Below are positions 1 to 24,796 of a stretch of DNA of 64,000 nucleotides, piece after piece. The position numbers were made by a program, and so were the translations under genes. Position 1 is the stretch's first letter, and every line of letters starts with the position of its first letter. Source of the DNA: a virus. Where the stretch lies: IMG/VR virus record IMGVR_UViG_3300021389_000012, positions 1 through 64,000 of that record; one strand, written 5' to 3'. Under the pieces are notes generated by a model. The model was not told the DNA's origin, did not search any database, and worked only from the letters and a program-made list of their open reading frames with translations.

Positions 1-1336
1 CGCCGTTTGTATTACCTAACATTGTATTATAATCTTGTGCAGTAATCATTCTGTCTTGGCTAGCATAATTCTTTGGAGCATTTTCTCTTATTTCATCAAT
101 ACTTTCGTTTGAACTTGCATTTGATATTGGTTGTTTCATTTGCAGGCTAAACGCTGCGGTATATGTATTTCCATCAAATCCAGTATAATTTATTTGTACT
201 TTTTTAGTTGATAAGTCGTCTGGTCTTAAAATGTATGTGTTATTCTTACTAGTTCTATACCATACTCTAATAGTATCTTTTGGTAAATTACCAAATGTAC
301 TGTCAGGAAATAAAATAGATATTTGATTATTTTCTCTTGTTTTAACACTGAATATATTTCGCTCACCATTTGATAAGTTATTGTAAATTACATTACTATT
401 AACATCTCTTACTTTTGTCCATTCTTTAGTAATGTTTCCTGTTGCATTAATATTTTGTACCCAACAGTCTGTGTTGTTTACGTTAGTAGCATCAATGTCT
501 AACGACATACTATCAATTGGGTTATCTATGTTAAAGTCTTGATACTGTAATGTTCCTTGTTTAATGCCAAAGAAGAATCCGGCATTGGAACTGTTTATTC
601 CCTTACCATCATCTTTATAATATATTCCAAAGCCTCCGATTGGGTCTGGTGTCTTTTCCATAAACCCTTTTGTATCATTATCATAGTCACTGCTTATAAT
701 GTCAAATGAAGATGCTTTTCCTAATACCGCACCTTGCACATCAAATTTAATTTGATTAGGCGTATTGTTAATATCATAAAATTCTGTTTTTATATTATTA
801 ATTACTACTGATTTTTTTGGACTACCGTAATTATTACTATTTTGTAATACGGAATTTAATACAGTAATAAAATCATCTAAGTTATTAACGTTGTTTGAAA
901 TTTCGTATTTAATTGGCTGACCGCCTAAACTTGTTCCATCACTTCCAATAATATCTTCGTTTGTTTTAACACTTATTACTTTCATCTCACCGTACGCTGG
1001 CACATTGCGTCTTGGTTGATAACCTAAAAATTCTGCTAATTTGTAAACTGATTCTTGTCTTTGTGATGTACTTAAAAAGTTATTCCTTGCATTCATATCT
1101 ACTCGATATGCCAAGTTGTGTCCAAACTGTGCAACTACATCTAGTAGCGATACAAATTCAGCTGATTCAACCCAGTCATTGTAGTTCTCTGGGTAATTGT
1201 TGCGTACATAGTCAACCATTGCAGTTCTAATAGTATCAAAATCAAATGCTTGAAAGTTTGCATTGATATATGATTCATAGATTACTGTAAAGTCCTCTGC
1301 CGCAAAAAGTTTGTTTTGTCGTGATTTCTGTGCCAT
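1..1336 (-). CDS. gp6: Baseplate wedge protein, T4 gp6-like (runs off the window edge; not in ORF track)
   Basis: Minus-strand ORF from CAT 1334-1336: MAQKSRQNKLFAAEDF...DFDTIRTAMVDYVRNNYPENYNDWVES...ARNNFLSTSQRQESVYKLAEFLGY, ending ...IRENAPKNYASQDRMITAQDY; gp6/Baseplate-J-like motifs; directly downstream of gp25-like gene. Confidence 0.85.
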   Translation of the reverse strand, partial: MAQKSRQNKLFAAEDFTVIYESYINANFQAFDFDTIRTAMVDYVRNNYPENYNDWVESAEFVSLLDVVAQFGHNLAYRVDMNARNNFLSTSQRQESVYKLAEFLGYQPRRNVPAYGEMKVISVKTNEDIIGSDGTSLGGQPIKYEISNNVNNLDDFITVLNSVLQNSNNYGSPKKSVVINNIKTEFYDINNTPNQIKFDVQGAVLGKASSFDIISSDYDNDTKGFMEKTPDPIGGFGIYYKDDGKGINSSNAGFFFGIKQGTLQYQDFNIDNPIDSMSLDIDATNVNNTDCWVQNINATGNITKEWTKVRDVNSNVIYNNLSNGERNIFSVKTRENNQISILFPDSTFGNLPKDTIRVWYRTSKNNTYILRPDDLSTKKVQINYTGFDGNTYTAAFSLQMKQPISNASSNESIDEIRENAPKNYASQDRMITAQDYNTMLGNTNG

Positions 1337-10309: not shown

Positions 10310-12085
10310 ATGCTAACAATTAAAAATATCACCGTAAAGAATTTTATGAGTGTGGGCAATGTCACACAGGCAGTTCACTTTGACAACGCAGGATTAACAC
10401 TTGTATTGGGTAACAACTTAGACTTAGGTGGCGATGGCTCTCGTAATGGTACAGGTAAAACTACTATTGTTAACGCACTCAGTTATGCACTATATGGTGC
10501 CGCACTTTATAATATTAAAAAAGATAATCTAGTTAACAAAACTAATAATAAAAATATGATGGTTACTGTTGACTTTGAAGTAAATGGTACACCATATAGA
10601 ATTGAGCGTGGACGTAAACCTAATATATTTAAATATCTAATCAACGATGTAGATAACAACGAAGGTATTACAGATGAGATGCAAGGCGAAGGTAGACAAA
10701 GTCAAGCAGTAATTGAACAACTACTAGGTATGAGTCATACAATGTTTAAGCACATTGTTGCACTAAACACTTACACCGATCCATTCCTAAGTATGCGAGC
10801 AAACGATCAGCGTGAAATGATTGAACAGTTGCTAGGTATTACTAAACTTAGTGAGAAGGCAGACATATTAAAAGACCTTCTTAAAGGTACTAAAGATAGA
10901 ATTACAGAAGAAACATACAGGATTAAAGGCATCGAGGATGCTAACGAACGTATTGGTAGTAGCATTAAAGATTTAGAGCGTAGACAAAAAACTTGGGCTA
11001 CTCAATTACAAGAACGCATACAAGAAAGTACTAGCGAACTATCTGCACTAGAACACATAGACATTGATGTAGAAATAACATCGCACGAAGAATTTACAAA
11101 ATTTAACGAAAAGAAGAATCAAATAGATACATTAACTGCCGAGATTGCTAGACTAACAAGTAGTGTTGAGCGTGAGAACAAGCGTTTAACTAAAGCACAA
11201 ACTGATCTAGATTCAACATTAGAACACAAATGTTATGCGTGTGGACAAGAAATACATGACGAACAACACGATAAAATTGTAATACAAAAAACAGAACTTG
11301 TAGATGAAAGTCAAAAACACATTGACGATGATAATCAATTGATTACAGAATACAATACTGCAATTGCAGACTTAGGAGAGTTAGGTACTGCACCACGCAC
11401 AGAGTATAACACATTACAAGAAGCATACAAACATCAAAGCAAAATGGATAAGTTACAAACTGCATTAAGCAATGCTAAAGAAGAAACTAATCCATACATA
11501 GAACAAATTGACAGTCTAAAAGAAACTGGCCTACAAGAAGTAAACTGGGCAGAGGTAAATAGACTTGAGGAACTAAGAGAGCATCAAGACTTTTTATTAA
11601 AACTATTAACTAACAAAGATAGTTTTATTCGTAAAAAGATTATTGAACAAAACTTGCAGTTCTTAAACACACGATTAGAATATTATATTACACGTTTAGG
11701 TTTGCCACATGAAGTACAATTTCAAAGTGACCTAACTGTAACTATTACACAACTTGGACAAGACTTAGACTTTGATAACTTGTCAAGAGGTGAGCGTAAC
11801 AGGTTAATACTTGGACTAAGTTGGAGTTTCCGTGATGTCTTTGAAAGTATGAACCACCCTATTAACTTTGTTTGTATTGACGAACTAGTTGATAGTGGAA
11901 TGGATACAATTGGTGTAGAAAGTGCATTGGGTGTATTAAAGAAGATGGAACGTGATAGACAAAAAAATATTCTACTTATCTCACATAGAGATGAGCTAGT
12001 TGGTCGTGTACAAAGTGTATTGCAAGTTACAAAAGAAAATGGCTTCACTACATTTAATACAGAGATAGAAGTAATTGATGCATAA
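10310..12085 (+). CDS. gp46: Recombination ATPase gp46 (Rad50/SbcC-like)
   Basis: KNFMSVGN, Walker A NGTGKTT, zinc hook CYAC, LSRGE signature, CIDE Walker B. Confidence 0.93.
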   Translation: MLTIKNITVKNFMSVGNVTQAVHFDNAGLTLVLGNNLDLGGDGSRNGTGKTTIVNALSYALYGAALYNIKKDNLVNKTNNKNMMVTVDFEVNGTPYRIERGRKPNIFKYLINDVDNNEGITDEMQGEGRQSQAVIEQLLGMSHTMFKHIVALNTYTDPFLSMRANDQREMIEQLLGITKLSEKADILKDLLKGTKDRITEETYRIKGIEDANERIGSSIKDLERRQKTWATQLQERIQESTSELSALEHIDIDVEITSHEEFTKFNEKKNQIDTLTAEIARLTSSVERENKRLTKAQTDLDSTLEHKCYACGQEIHDEQHDKIVIQKTELVDESQKHIDDDNQLITEYNTAIADLGELGTAPRTEYNTLQEAYKHQSKMDKLQTALSNAKEETNPYIEQIDSLKETGLQEVNWAEVNRLEELREHQDFLLKLLTNKDSFIRKKIIEQNLQFLNTRLEYYITRLGLPHEVQFQSDLTVTITQLGQDLDFDNLSRGERNRLILGLSWSFRDVFESMNHPINFVCIDELVDSGMDTIGVESALGVLKKMERDRQKNILLISHRDELVGRVQSVLQVTKENGFTTFNTEIEVIDA

Positions 12086-12245
12086 TCATTATGGTGAAGA
12101 AATACAAACTGAATTAGAGATAAATGATCCTACGTATGTATTATTACACGCACCAAACACAATAAATGAATCAACTTTGGGTGTAGACACATTAGAGATG
12201 ATTAGGAAAACAATCAATGAGTGGGTTGAAGAAGAACAACGGTAA
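12078..12245 (+). CDS. Small acidic hypothetical protein, 55 aa (not in ORF track)
   Basis: MHNHYGEEIQTELEINDPTYVLLHAPNTINESTLGVDTLEMIRKTINEWVEEEQR; start overlaps the gp46 3' end and fills the gap to the next gene. Confidence 0.5.
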   Translation: MHNHYGEEIQTELEINDPTYVLLHAPNTINESTLGVDTLEMIRKTINEWVEEEQR

Positions 12246-12669
12246 ATGTCCGTGGACTTACAACAATGAAGTTGTAGATGAACTTCCTGCTGACTGCGAA
12301 GGATTTGTTTATCTAATCACAAATACTACTAACAATAAGAAATACGTTGGTAAAAAACTAGCAAGATTTAAAACAACAAAGCCGCCTCTTAAAGGTAAAA
12401 AGAATAAAAGACGTGGAACAAAAGAAAGTGACTGGCAAACCTATTGGGGTTCATCAGATCATTTAAATGCAGACGTATTAACAATTGGCGAAGAAAACTT
12501 TACTAGAGAAATATTACATTATTGTCCTAGTAGAGGCGTACTAAGTTATATGGAAGCAAAAGAACAATTTGACCGTAGAGTATTAGAAACCGATGAATAC
12601 TACAACGGAATAATTAATGTAAGAGTAGGTAGTTCAAAGATTCTTACAGAACACTTAAAAAAAGGTTGA
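12217..12669 (+). CDS. Stand-alone GIY-YIG family nuclease
   Basis: GFVYLITN...KYVGKK, YWGSS, FTREIL...EAKEQF, YYNGII. Confidence 0.85.
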   Translation: MSGLKKNNGKCPWTYNNEVVDELPADCEGFVYLITNTTNNKKYVGKKLARFKTTKPPLKGKKNKRRGTKESDWQTYWGSSDHLNADVLTIGEENFTREILHYCPSRGVLSYMEAKEQFDRRVLETDEYYNGIINVRVGSSKILTEHLKKG

Positions 12670-12694
12670 CAACGCATAACTTTCTTGTTATTAT
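12666..12694 (+). promoter_or_regulatory. Sigma70-like promoter overlapping the GIY-YIG stop codon
   Basis: AAAGG-TTGACA-N17-TATTAT with TGn extended -10. Confidence 0.7.
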
Positions 12695-12840
12695 AACAAA
12701 AGTAGCGTTTTAACTTTGTTTGAAGCAAATAATTAAAGCATCAGATAATTAATAGTGTAAAACCAAAACTCACACAGACATAAAGTCAAGCAATTACTGG
12801 CACAGTTCAAACCACAATCAGGCTAATAAAAACTAACACA

Positions 12841-13165
12841 GGCTTCAAAGCTCCGATTGGTCGGCATAGGTCGACTCACCTTGAGGTTACGTAATCACGT
12901 GACTAGATACTGGTGTGCTTAATAATGTCAATACACTGATTTGACAAATCAAAAAGATCAAGCTCTACGAACGCTCGTAACTTGAGGATAGTCCAAAAGT
13001 CGATACCATGGCTTCGGATGTTTCTGCGTTAGAAAAGCAGTATGTAATAAGGGTACAGCGTAACCGCCCTTCCTAGGTGTTAAACTAGGTTTACTATGGT
13101 AATGTGGGTGCTGTTCTATGCCAAGAACTCATTTTACACTTGGCCCGTAGTAGGCTAAGTGTGAA
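12841..13165 (+). ncRNA. Large structured non-coding RNA candidate (family not recognised)
   Basis: 675-bp gap without a credible ORF; GC-richer core with nested helices 12863-69/13116-22, 12871-76/12998-13003, 13004-11/13094-101 and a 13-bp hairpin 13133-45/13153-65. Confidence 0.65.
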
Positions 13166-13344
13166 TAAAATATCTTGCCAAGTAACCATCTTATAATCAC
13201 ATAAATAATAGTAAGACATAATATTTACAATAATCACTATTAAACAAATATTAAAAGCGTAAGCAACATACAGTGAACAAAGCGTTAGCTTTGTGAAACT
13301 GATGATATCGTAGATATCAATTACATGAGAGAACAATAACACAT

Positions 13345-13788
13345 ATGACGTTGGACGAATTTCAGAGTAAATTTTTAGAGTTTACTGAAAAGCAAGTTGA
13401 ACCCCTTAAAGATGACGGATATCCAGTATGTCCGTATGCAAAAAGTGCCAGAATTAAACGGGCGTTGCAGTTCATTGATGGTCGTGATGATTTAACAGTA
13501 ATGGATACTTTTGATCCTGAAACATATCAAATGGGTATTGTTTGGTTAGGTGATATTGATGATATTACTCCTGTAGAAAAAATTTGCGAGGAGTACAGAA
13601 AAAAGAATCCACATCTCTTATACTTTACTAGTACAAGACAAAGTGGACATTTTGTTAAAAACTTTACTGATTGTGTGTTTATTCAACGTGCTAACGACTT
13701 GTTAGAAAAACGCAAACACTTACATGATAATACAAACTATTACGATAGTTGGCCCGAAGATTATTATAAACTAATAATGGGTCACTGA
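13345..13788 (+). CDS. Hypothetical protein (CPYA motif, possibly DUF1415-like)
   Basis: ORF with YPVCPYAK motif and phage-like composition. Confidence 0.6.
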   Translation: MTLDEFQSKFLEFTEKQVEPLKDDGYPVCPYAKSARIKRALQFIDGRDDLTVMDTFDPETYQMGIVWLGDIDDITPVEKICEEYRKKNPHLLYFTSTRQSGHFVKNFTDCVFIQRANDLLEKRKHLHDNTNYYDSWPEDYYKLIMGH

Positions 13789-24720: not shown

Positions 24721-24726
24721 CACTCA

Positions 24727-24772
24727 CGTTCATCCTATTATAGGACGGAAGTAGCAATAGCGAAGGAACGCA
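24727..24772 (+). promoter_or_regulatory. Glutamine riboswitch (glnA RNA motif / glutamine-I class)
   Basis: CGTTC-A-TCCTA tta TAGGA-C-GGAAGTA-GC aata GC-GAA-G-GAACG-CA: P1, P2, E-loop and P3 arrangement of the glnA motif, 24 nt upstream of an ATG with SD. Confidence 0.8.
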
Positions 24773-24796
24773 CTTAACTGTAAAAAGGAGAGTGTT

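What the first reader, a model, noticed from the sequence alone, without database searches (positions are those of the whole stretch)
12217..13344. Large nested ncRNA with its own promoter immediately behind a minimal GIY-YIG nuclease
Seen: a 675-bp gene-free gap in an otherwise densely packed genome. A TTGACA-N17-TATTAT promoter overlaps the nuclease stop codon. The core forms a compatible nested set of helices: outer GGCATAG 12863-69/CTATGCC 13116-22; domain 1 closed by TCGACT 12871-76/AGTCGA 12998-13003 (inside it AGGTTACG/CGTAACTT and TGATTT/AAATCA); domain 2 closed by TACCATGG 13004-11/CTATGGTA 13094-101 (inside it CTGC/GCAG, AAGGGT/GCCCTT, CCTAG/CTAGG). There is a possible pseudoknot ACAGC 13055-59/GCTGT 13110-14 and a 13-bp 3' hairpin 13133-65. 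The nuclease is only the catalytic domain, with a Lys/Arg-rich insert (KTTKPPLKGKKNKRR) and no NUMOD/HTH targeting domain. Inference: an undescribed phage RNA class, possibly a partner or guide scaffold for the nuclease (compare IscB with omega RNA). Alternatives are an independent large RNA or an R-loop primer at a replication origin. This nuclease type is common in T4-like phages, so adjacency alone does not prove partnership.
Basis: partly seen in the sequence, partly recalled or inferred. Interest (0 to 1): 0.85.

Follow-up and report, generated by a model that had tools for sequence, protein, structure and literature searches.

The report
Knotted twin-box RNA of marine phages
The gene-free gap behind a small nuclease gene of this uncultured marine giant phage encodes a real, multiply knotted non-coding RNA of about 330-350 bases; it belongs to a widespread, barely catalogued family of mobile-element RNAs, its job is unknown, and the nuclease is a replaceable neighbour rather than a shown partner.

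Summary
The gap is real and holds a genuine structured RNA on the + strand, about 12833-13186. Across 40 distinct relatives, my 16-helix model is 96.9% paired, against 33-38% in slid controls, and 40 of 78 pairs show compensatory changes. It includes one long-range pseudoknot and a loop-loop contact.

Its four long-range ones score no better than shuffles.

The window matches no Rfam family. The conserved 3' core, however, recurs in relatives whose 5' domain is Rfam RF01718 (Polynucleobacter-1, function unknown). It also recurs in a bacterial chromosome between integrase genes.

An unusual feature is one 7-nt word, TGCCAAG, on both sides of the near-invariant terminal hairpin. The word differs between clades, but both copies change together.

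Nuclease and RNA occur apart:
- 19 phage contexts carry a PDDEXK nuclease instead of GIY-YIG.
- The two bacterial copies examined show no nuclease gene beside them.
- An 82%-identical GIY-YIG sits in phage Melnitz-3 with no such RNA.

Earlier follow-ups in this scan reached similar readings on other DNA ("twin-box RNA"). The function remains unknown. My best inference is a stand-alone scaffold RNA that presents two recognition words.

The parts
12217..12669 (+). Small stand-alone GIY-YIG nuclease gene (150 aa, catalytic domain only). It occupies a swappable nuclease slot after gp46.
   Evidence: PF19835 E 1e-34; phrog_447 E 3e-37. Replaced by PDDEXK_15 in 19 contexts.
12666..12694 (+). Sigma-70-like promoter TTGACA-N17-(TG)TTATTAT overlapping the nuclease stop codon.
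   Evidence: 11 of 12 consensus matches with an extended -10 TG. The hexamers are kept while the spacer varies in most of the loci with gp46 >= 80% identity; the promoter is absent in clades where the RNA starts right after the upstream stop.
12695..12832 (+). Poorly conserved leader between the promoter and the RNA core.
   Evidence: Identity 0.30-0.48 and about 50% gaps in 46 relatives.
12833..12843 (+). Conserved 5' motif CTAAYAYAGGC at the start of the conserved block.
   Evidence: Alignment A1. Its role was not tested.
12859..12951 (+). 5' domain. It comprises H1 12859-65/12870-76; H2a CACC 12877-80/GGTG 12912-15, which encloses H2 12885-90/12899-904; and H3a GTCA 12927-30/TGAC 12942-45 interleaved with H3b TGAT 12937-40/ATCA 12948-51.
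   Evidence: 89-97% of cells paired per helix, with double changes. This domain differs between clades.
12933..12936 (+). ACAC in the H3 loop. It pairs with GTGT 13077-80 in the H9 loop (loop-loop contact).
   Evidence: 100% paired; ACAC/GTGT changes to GCAC/GTGC and to GCGC/GCGT. Both partners are deleted together in L050, L062, L070 and L074.
12952..13105 (+). Conserved 3' core (model R1). It comprises H4 12958-62/12981-85 with the invariant AAGCUCU...AACU internal loop; H5 12986-88/13022-24; H6 12991-94/13016-19; H7; junction helix 13044-47/13091-94; H8 13050-54/13066-70 with the near-invariant loop containing AACCGC; and H9 13073-76/13085-88.
   Evidence: R1 scores 166.7 bits here. There are 69 further hits in other viral contigs, from 36 to 174 bits.
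13004..13010 (+). 5' strand of the long-range pseudoknot (TACCATG, inside the H6 loop). It pairs with TATGGTA 13095-13101.
   Evidence: 100% paired; 5 of 7 pairs have changes on both sides.
13113..13128 (+). Hairpin GTTCT/AGAAC. Its loop and 3' stem carry box 1, TGCCAAG 13119-13125.
   Evidence: Folds of 30-odd family members and twin-word statistics.
13133..13165 (+). Terminal hairpin H10 (13 bp) with the near-invariant 3' strand GGCUAAGUGUGA.
   Evidence: 97.5% paired; CG changes to UA at its top pair; several conserved G-U pairs.
13176..13182 (+). Box 2, TGCCAAG: the same word as box 1, 57 nt downstream, in an unpaired tail.
   Evidence: The longest shared word is >= 7 nt in 48 of 66 distinct family members, against 9 of 66 after shuffling, with 38 distinct words. 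It is also present as AACAAAAG in the bacterial copy.
13201..13207 (+). ATAAATA late-promoter-type motif ahead of ORF147.
   Evidence: ATAAATA is found upstream of 15 of 54 genes, against 0.99 expected.
13257..13318 (+). Conserved downstream hairpins: GCGTAAGC 13257-64, CAAAGC-GTTA-GCTTTG 13278-93 and GATATC-GTA-GATATC 13304-18.
   Evidence: Identity 0.72-0.74. Similar GCGTAAGC and GCGTTAGC hairpins follow the partial relative in Atu_ph07.
13345..13788 (+). ORF147, of unknown function. It is the downstream neighbour only in the closer clades.
   Evidence: No Pfam hit. No ORF147 match downstream of the RNA in most distant RNA-bearing loci, where the baseplate hub gene follows instead.

Best explanation
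The gap encodes a stand-alone, self-folding non-coding RNA on the + strand, with its core at about 12833-13186.

Transcription. In this clade the RNA has a sigma-70-like early promoter over the nuclease stop codon. It is also reached by read-through from the nuclease gene.

Anatomy (shown). A variable 5' domain is followed by a highly conserved 3' core that is tied up by one long-range pseudoknot and one loop-loop contact. Then come a small hairpin, a near-invariant 13-bp hairpin and a tail. The small hairpin loop and the tail carry the same 7-nt word.

Family (shown). The RNA belongs to a family spread through uncultured aquatic giant phages. Distant copies lie in a bacterial chromosome, and there is a partial relative in Agrobacterium phage Atu_ph07. 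In some members the 5' domain is the Rfam motif Polynucleobacter-1.

Mechanism (inferred). The knotted core is a rigid scaffold. Its job is to present the invariant hairpin flanked by two identical, clade-specific single-stranded words. An unidentified co-evolving partner, most simply a nucleic acid that pairs with both copies or a two-site binding protein, would read these words.

The adjacent nuclease fills the slot that in cultured relatives holds EndoVII or RusA-type resolvases. It is a neighbour by synteny, not a demonstrated partner.
For: Structure:
- 56 RNAalifold pairs, 29 of them compensatory.
- Full model: 96.9% of cells paired against 33-38% when slid; 40 of 78 pairs with double changes; 0 of 500 shuffles reach it.
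- G-U is the commonest pair at ten positions. These would be A-C on the other strand, which fixes the strand.
- No codon periodicity: 72, 75 and 74 variable sites by codon position, p = 0.97.
- GC bump over the core.

Family:
- 70 R1 hits in the gp46-anchored loci and 69 in loci from the pattern scan. The phage copies whose flanks were read lie between gp46 and the baseplate hub.
- RF01718 lies directly upstream of the R1 core in L136, L112, L092, L086 and L154.
- A bacterial copy has RF01718 at 96 bits, R1 at 35 bits, the hairpin and a twin word.

Twin word.

RNA presence: metatranscriptome contigs from four RNA runs of four studies cover the region. In two of them (X17, X19) one contig runs unbroken from the nuclease gene's 3' end into the core. 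These are contigs only, and DNA carry-over was not excluded.

Nuclease independence.

Resolvase slot in cultured relatives.
Against: - No function was tested.
- The ends of the RNA are inferred from conservation only.
- The promoter is missing in clades where the RNA abuts the upstream gene, so 'stand-alone' may mean processed from a longer transcript.
- No partner for the boxes was found. There is no consistent complementary segment within the RNA or its flanks, and the word is not enriched elsewhere in the window (11 copies against 7.3 +/- 2.9 expected).
- Most phage copies examined sit beside a small nuclease gene (97 of 113 contexts). This includes a clade where the GIY-YIG gene is inverted yet still adjacent. 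A functional link to 'a nuclease' is therefore not excluded.
Confidence: 0.6

Rival explanations
1. Replication-origin RNA. The transcript runs into the AT-rich tract and DNA hairpins downstream and forms a persistent R-loop that primes phage DNA synthesis. This would resemble T4 oriF/oriG or ColE1 RNA II. The twin words would act as iteron-like or hybrid-anchoring sites.
For: - The promoter is followed by the structured RNA, with no U-tract terminator after H10.
- A 24-26% GC tract lies at 13150-13250.
- Conserved mini-hairpins lie downstream, and they also follow the Atu_ph07 relative.
- The locus lies in the recombination and replication module: gp55, gp47, gp46 and the resolvase slot.
- Concerted change of direct repeats is what iterons do (general knowledge).
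Against: - Nothing here tests replication.
- The locus is a point of convergent, not divergent, transcription.
- The AT-rich tract also carries an ordinary late-promoter motif for ORF147.
- Distant members and the bacterial copy have different downstream sequence.
- An elaborate pseudoknotted fold with a loop-loop contact is more than known R-loop primers need.
Confidence: 0.17
2. The RNA is a partner or guide scaffold for the domain-less GIY-YIG nuclease (or for whichever small nuclease fills the slot), with the variable twin words acting as guide-like segments.
For: - Adjacency persists from gp46 98% down to 47% identity, even where the GIY-YIG gene is inverted.
- The nuclease lacks any targeting domain.
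- The words are hypervariable between clades.
- Weinberg et al. 2010 saw the same adjacency for RF01718.
Against: - The RNA occurs with a PDDEXK_15 nuclease instead in 19 contexts.
- It occurs in two bacterial loci beside DUF6641, one of them between two integrase genes, with no nuclease gene among the ORFs read around either copy.
- An 82%-identical GIY-YIG sits in Melnitz-3 in another context with no RNA.
- 786 phage records carry relatives of the nuclease, yet blastn finds no phage record with the RNA.
- Cultured relatives have resolvases in the same slot.
- The words are only 7-10 nt long and no target was found.
Confidence: 0.07
3. Self-processing RNA. The knotted core is a ribozyme, or the substrate of a host RNase, and cutting at the two identical words releases the invariant hairpin as a small RNA.
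For: - Two identical words bracket a near-invariant hairpin.
- Where no promoter is present, the RNA must be cut out of a longer transcript.
- The size and knotting are typical of ribozymes (general knowledge).
Against: - No match to any ribozyme family in Rfam at E <= 10.
- No internal segment complementary to the words.
- The contig data cannot show RNA ends.
Confidence: 0.07
4. Cis-acting element: either a long 5' leader or riboswitch for ORF147, or a protective 3' UTR for the nuclease operon.
For: - The RNA lies between the nuclease gene and ORF147 on the same strand.
- Transcript contigs are continuous from the nuclease gene.
Against: - ORF147 has its own late-promoter motif downstream of the RNA.
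- Most distant members show no ORF147 match downstream of the RNA; where the flank is long enough, the oppositely oriented baseplate hub gene follows.
- One clade has the nuclease on the opposite strand.
- The bacterial copies have other neighbours.
Confidence: 0.06

Closest known systems
Polynucleobacter-1 RNA motif (Rfam RF01718; Weinberg et al. 2010, Genome Biol 11:R31, PMC2864571)
   Same: Relatives of this RNA carry a full RF01718 match (84-91 bits) immediately 5' of the same conserved core. So does a bacterial chromosome. Both are orphan RNAs of aquatic metagenomes. The 2010 paper already noted the position downstream of a phage-like gene family.
   Different: RF01718 is a 141-nt motif that covers only the 5' third. 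The 3' core, the pseudoknot, the terminal hairpin and the twin words are not in it. The window's own 5' domain gives no RF01718 match even at E <= 10. The paper found no copy in any sequenced phage.
Large 'ornate' RNAs of unknown function linked to phages and prophages (GOLLD RF01998, ROOL RF03087, OLE, raiA)
   Same: These are also large, heavily structured, covariation-supported RNAs. They are enriched in phages or mobile DNA and have no known function.
   Different: There is no sequence or model match. This RNA is smaller, about 340 nt, and the twin-word feature is not described for them (my knowledge).
HEARO / omega RNAs of IscB and TnpB
   Same: A structured RNA encoded next to a small nuclease gene, with a variable segment.
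   Different: - No Rfam HEARO match.
- No IscB or TnpB gene nearby.
- The nuclease family is interchangeable, and no nuclease gene lies beside the two bacterial copies.
- The variable word is 7-10 nt, occurs twice and is internal rather than a terminal guide.
T4 oriF/oriG and ColE1 RNA II (promoter-driven R-loop primers)
   Same: A promoter, then a transcript without a terminator, then an AT-rich tract, all in a replication and recombination gene neighbourhood.
   Different: Those origins do not need a 300-nt pseudoknotted fold. No replication data exist here.

Membership tests
Rfam RF01718 Polynucleobacter-1 | Covariance-model score at or above the gathering score of 37 bits. | tested here: not met
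   No match in window 12400-13600 even at E <= 10, and none at gathering score in the whole window.
Rfam RF01718 Polynucleobacter-1 | Homology to RNAs that contain the motif. | tested here: met
   The R1 core built from this RNA hits L136, L112, L092, L086 and L154 at 71-77 bits, directly 3' of their RF01718 matches. It also hits the bacterial locus L329 at 35 bits.
Rfam RF01718 Polynucleobacter-1 | Position downstream of GOS11034 / PSSM2_218-like genes (Weinberg 2010, Additional file 1). | tested here: inconclusive
   The RNA lies downstream of a phrog_447 GIY-YIG gene with many cyanophage relatives. I did not verify that this is the same gene family.
'Twin-box' RNA family (informal name from earlier notes of this scan) | A conserved knotted core, plus a near-invariant hairpin flanked by one word present twice that changes in concert. 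| tested here: met
   R1 scores 166.7 bits. The pseudoknot is 100% paired. TGCCAAG lies at 13119-25 and 13176-82.
OMEGA guide RNAs (HEARO / omega RNA) | Encoded with IscB or TnpB; Rfam HEARO-type fold; obligate co-occurrence with its nuclease. | tested here: not met
   No Rfam match. The neighbour is GIY-YIG or PDDEXK. Nuclease and RNA are distributed independently.
Group I intron with a homing endonuclease | Rfam RF00028 match, P3/P7 pseudoknot with P4-P6 between the strands, and flanking exons of one gene. | tested here: not met
   No Rfam match. The pseudoknot has only about 9 nt between its first two strands. gp46 and ORF147 are complete separate genes.
tmRNA / tRNA-like / RNase P RNA | Detection by ARAGORN or by Rfam models. 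| tested here: not met
   ARAGORN finds 0 genes in the window. No Rfam match.
R-loop replication origin (T4 oriF/oriG type) | Transcript-dependent initiation of DNA synthesis at a DNA-unwinding element. | not testable with these tools
   Only the promoter, the missing terminator and the AT-rich tract can be seen.

The most novel reading that the evidence does not exclude
The RNA and the interchangeable small nuclease next to it (GIY-YIG, PDDEXK, and perhaps EndoVII or RusA in cultured relatives) form one functional module. In it, the two identical clade-specific words beside the invariant hairpin specify, by base pairing, where a domain-less structure-specific nuclease or the replication machinery acts on DNA. 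This would be a new kind of RNA-specified DNA transaction in giant phages and integrative elements.
Probability: 0.12. Interest if true: 0.9.

Novelty: new variant of a known kind. Interest (0 to 1): 0.66.

Why it matters
Large RNAs with several tertiary contacts and this much covariation are rare. Those whose function is known have mostly proved to be ribozymes, riboswitches or parts of RNA-protein machines.

This one is common in uncultured marine and other aquatic giant phages, and it reaches bacterial integrative elements. Yet only a third of it, in a minority of members, is catalogued, and that part has no known function.

The concerted change of two identical words around an invariant hairpin is a concrete, testable handle on specificity. 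It points to an unidentified co-evolving partner.

Two leads to laboratory systems exist. One is the partial relative I found in Agrobacterium phage Atu_ph07.

Tried and rejected
- **Rfam.** Searched at gathering score and at E <= 10. Only the glutamine riboswitch elsewhere in the window matched.
- **blastn.** The gap against 50,697 phage records gave no match.
- **R1 and RF01718 on cultured relatives.** PA5oct, Phosso, E. coli phage A4 and Vibrio phage 2.275.O gave nothing significant. I therefore could not reproduce earlier notes of look-alikes in E. coli and Pseudomonas giant phages with these models. A crude hairpin-plus-repeat scan of their syntenic gaps gave only chance-level words.
- **Weak R1 hit in Melnitz-3.** It scores 18.6 bits and lies inside a CDS, so I treat it as chance.
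- **Intramolecular partner for the twin word.** No consistent position was found. Column-wise analysis failed because the variable region aligns badly.
- **The word elsewhere in the window.** Not enriched.
- **Rolling-circle templating of an ORF between the boxes.** Spacing varies from about 52 to 68 nt and is not a multiple of 3.
- **ORF147 against DUF6641.** Unrelated, and there is no DUF6641 in the contig.
- **RNA-run contigs.** Two studies have a contig ending at 13101 and nothing over 13102-13121. This is the most strain-variable stretch, no DNA run was laid beside it, and contigs cannot show RNA ends. I draw nothing from it.
- **Single-sequence fold z-scores.** They were -2.35 on the + strand and -2.08 on the - strand, which does not tell the strands apart.
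Full report
**Setting.**
- The window is part of a 76.5-kb IMG/VR viral contig that CheckV rates at 21% complete. That suggests a genome of several hundred kb.
- Its gp46 (10310-12085) is 50% identical to those of the giant phages PA5oct and Phosso. It is 73-98% identical to those of 80 uncultured viral contigs of up to 221 kb.
- The gene order is late sigma factor, gp47, gp46, a 56-aa ORF, the GIY-YIG gene (12217-12669), the 675-bp gap, and ORF147 (13345-13788). After that come oppositely oriented baseplate genes.

- The gap, the promoter-like site at 12666-12694 (11 of 12 consensus matches with an extended -10) and the catalytic-domain-only nuclease (PF19835) are all as described.
- GC rises to 43-46% over 12800-13150, against about 30% around it.
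- The gap is conserved at 66-93% nucleotide identity in most gp46-anchored relatives. The conserved block is about 12830-13200, with a second block at 13260-13330.
- Variable sites show no codon periodicity (72, 75 and 74 by codon position; p = 0.97). No frame is conserved.

**Structure.**
- I aligned 40 distinct cores (A1). RNAalifold predicts 56 pairs, 29 of them with compensatory changes.
- I added helices seen by eye and by a stacked-pair scan. The resulting 16-helix model was counted on A1:

| Measure | Result |
|---|---|
| Cells paired | 96.9% |
| Cells paired with the 3' partner slid | 33-38% |
| Pairs with changes on both sides | 40 of 78 |
| Shuffles reaching the observed values | 0 of 500 |

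- The pseudoknot TACCATG 13004-10 / TATGGTA 13095-101 is 100% paired, and 5 of its 7 pairs change on both sides. Its 5' strand lies in the loop of helix GTCC/GGAT (12991-94/13016-19), so the fold is knotted, not nested.
- ACAC 12933-36 in one hairpin loop pairs with GTGT 13077-80 in another. This contact is 100% paired and passes through ACAC/GTGT, GCAC/GTGC and GCGC/GCGT. Both partners are deleted together in four relatives.
- G-U is the commonest pair at ten positions. These would be A-C mismatches on the other strand, so the RNA is on the + strand.
They pair in 60.5% of cells, against 60.0 +/- 0.7 in shuffles. Its six local helices hold.

**Family.**
- I built a covariance model of the 3' core (R1, window 12952-13105). 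It finds a single copy in the contig.
- It finds 70 hits in the gp46-anchored loci.
- A pattern scan of viral contigs yielded 69 more hits, from 174 down to 36 bits.
- Where the flanks of the distant copies were read, gp46 lies upstream (47-62% identical) and/or the baseplate hub gene downstream.
- The 5' domain is not constant. In L136, L112, L092, L086 and L154 it is a full match to Rfam RF01718, Polynucleobacter-1, at 84-91 bits, ending about 14 nt before the R1 hit.
- The window and L076 give no RF01718 match at E <= 10.
- In a sample of 151 genomes of one bacterial family, one genome has RF01718 at 96 bits. It is followed by an R1 match (35 bits, E 3e-7), a hairpin resembling H10 and a twin word. 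This copy lies between two Phage_integrase genes and next to a divergent DUF6641 gene.
- A second, weaker bacterial copy also lies beside a divergent ORF that resembles that DUF6641 protein by eye; I did not run it against Pfam.
- Agrobacterium phage Atu_ph07 has a partial relative (30.7 bits, plus a visible GGGUACAG..AACCGCC motif) in an 840-bp gap far from its gp46.
- The only literature on RF01718 is Weinberg et al. 2010. It lists 16 examples, gives no function, notes that most lie downstream of a gene family resembling cyanophage PSSM2_218, and found none in sequenced phages.

**The twin word.**
- In the window, TGCCAAG lies at 13119-25, in the loop and 3' stem of hairpin 13113-28. It lies again at 13176-82, in the tail after hairpin H10 (13133-65). 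The two copies are 57 nt apart.
- Across 66 distinct family sequences, I compared the stretch before H10 with the stretch after it. The longest shared word is >= 7 nt in 48 sequences, against 9 after shuffling. There are 38 different words, for example TGTCAAG, GGTGAAG, GGAAAAGT, TGGTAAAG, AGGATAAT and ACCACAT. H10 itself, between the copies, is nearly invariant.
- The bacterial copy has AACAAAAG twice.
- I found no consistent complementary segment, no enrichment of the word elsewhere in the window and no constant or triplet spacing.
- I noticed this feature before reading the earlier notes, which describe the same thing on other DNA.

**Nuclease: partner or neighbour?** I examined 113 distinct contexts with 1 kb of upstream sequence:

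| Gene within 1 kb upstream of the RNA | Contexts |
|---|---|
| GIY-YIG, same strand | 65 |
| GIY-YIG, opposite strand, abutting the RNA's 5' end | 13 |
| PDDEXK_15 nuclease (PF24608; phrog_244, annotated 'RusA-like Holliday junction resolvase'), same place | 19 |
| Neither (includes chance pattern matches) | 16 |

- The GIY-YIG belongs to phrog_447, a family of about 148 aa with relatives in 786 phage records.
- Its closest cultured relative (82% identical) is in Methylophilales phage Melnitz-3. There it follows ribonucleotide reductase and hypothetical genes, is followed by small ORFs with no large gap, and that genome has no credible R1 match.
- In cultured phages with the same gp55-gp47-gp46 order, the slot holds EndoVII (E. 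coli phage A4), and a RusA-like resolvase (PA5oct) or a 'Holliday junction resolvase' (Phosso) lies close downstream. Long unannotated gaps lie nearby.
- The simplest reading is non-orthologous replacement of a structure-specific nuclease in a conserved slot, with the RNA as the next element along.
- The persistent adjacency still leaves a small probability for a looser nuclease-RNA module.

**Expression.**
- The promoter hexamers are conserved with a varying spacer in the close clade (gp46 >= 80%). The promoter is absent where the RNA starts within about 100-150 nt of the upstream stop.
- Six RNA-library runs hold parts of the stretch, and I laid four of them. In two, from different studies, one contig runs from inside the nuclease gene (12538 or 12563) to 13101.
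- This is compatible with read-through transcription. Being contigs, it shows neither ends nor strand, and DNA carry-over was not excluded.
- ORF147 has an ATAAATA motif at 13201-07. That motif marks 15 of 54 gene upstreams in the window, against 0.99 expected. ORF147 therefore does not need the RNA's transcript.

**What it most likely does.**
- Shown: a conserved, knotted RNA with a modular 5' domain, an invariant core, an invariant hairpin and two co-varying words. It is carried by giant phages and by bacterial integrative DNA.
- Inferred: the core is a scaffold that presents the hairpin and the two words to a co-evolving partner.
- I rank the rival readings below this general one because none has direct support: R-loop origin (0.17), nuclease guide (0.07), self-processing (0.07) and cis-regulator (0.06).
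- The origin idea draws on the promoter, the missing terminator, the AT-rich tract and the mini-hairpins. Against it, the locus is a convergent transcription junction, and distant members have different downstream sequence.

**Novelty.**
- The RNA is not in Rfam as such.
- A third of it, in a minority of members, is the orphan motif RF01718.
- The core, the pseudoknots and the twin words are, as far as the held literature shows, undescribed.
- Earlier follow-ups of this scan reached similar conclusions on other contigs.

Noticed in passing
window 24725-24774: A glutamine riboswitch aptamer (RF01739, 55.1 bits) is the only Rfam hit in the window. From memory, the OM43 phage Melnitz is reported to use one ahead of a two-piece tmRNA. 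ARAGORN finds no tmRNA here.
   Followed up: no
L041:5971-6519 and 18 other contexts: A 181-183-aa PDDEXK_15 nuclease (PF24608; phrog_244, 'RusA-like Holliday junction resolvase') replaces the GIY-YIG gene at exactly the same position. Cultured relatives have EndoVII there, or a RusA-type resolvase nearby. This suggests a resolvase slot with non-orthologous replacement.
   Followed up: partly
MZ577098.1 30449-30889 (L200 4998-5438): Methylophilales phage Melnitz-3 (Kyanoviridae) carries a GIY-YIG gene 82% identical to the window's, in an unrelated neighbourhood. This suggests recent horizontal transfer of the nuclease gene.
   Followed up: partly
L329 873-1310 (-) and L330 1806-2240 (+): In both bacterial copies of the RNA, the ORF divergently transcribed from the RNA's 5' end is a ~145-aa protein. 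The L329 one matches DUF6641 (PF20346); the L330 one resembles it by eye and was not scanned. Its function is unknown.
   Followed up: partly
window 13257-13318; L208 about 1160-1250 (- strand): Conserved small hairpins (GCGTAAGC, CAAAGC-GTTA-GCTTTG, GATATC-GTA-GATATC) follow the RNA. Atu_ph07 has GCGTAAGC and GCGTTAGC hairpins after its partial relative.
   Followed up: no
NC_042013.1 about 489900-490330 (- strand): This is a partial, rearranged relative of the RNA in cultured Agrobacterium phage Atu_ph07: H4 and H7 modules at 30.7 bits, plus a GGGUACAGGACAACCGCC motif. It lies in an 840-bp gene-free stretch with no annotated nuclease gene beside it.
   Followed up: partly
whole window, gene upstream regions: ATAAATA(C) is the dominant upstream motif (15 of 54 genes against 0.99 expected). 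It is a T4-like late-promoter word.
   Followed up: partly
window 12075-12245: A 56-aa ORF overlaps the end of gp46 and the start of the nuclease gene. It is poorly conserved (43-86% identity) and absent in many relatives.
   Followed up: no
L204 8661-9568; L083 8411-9424; L082 8868-9530: Cultured giant phages A4, Phosso and PA5oct have 660-1015-bp unannotated gaps between gp46 and the baseplate hub, in or near the syntenic region. My models find no homology there.
   Followed up: partly
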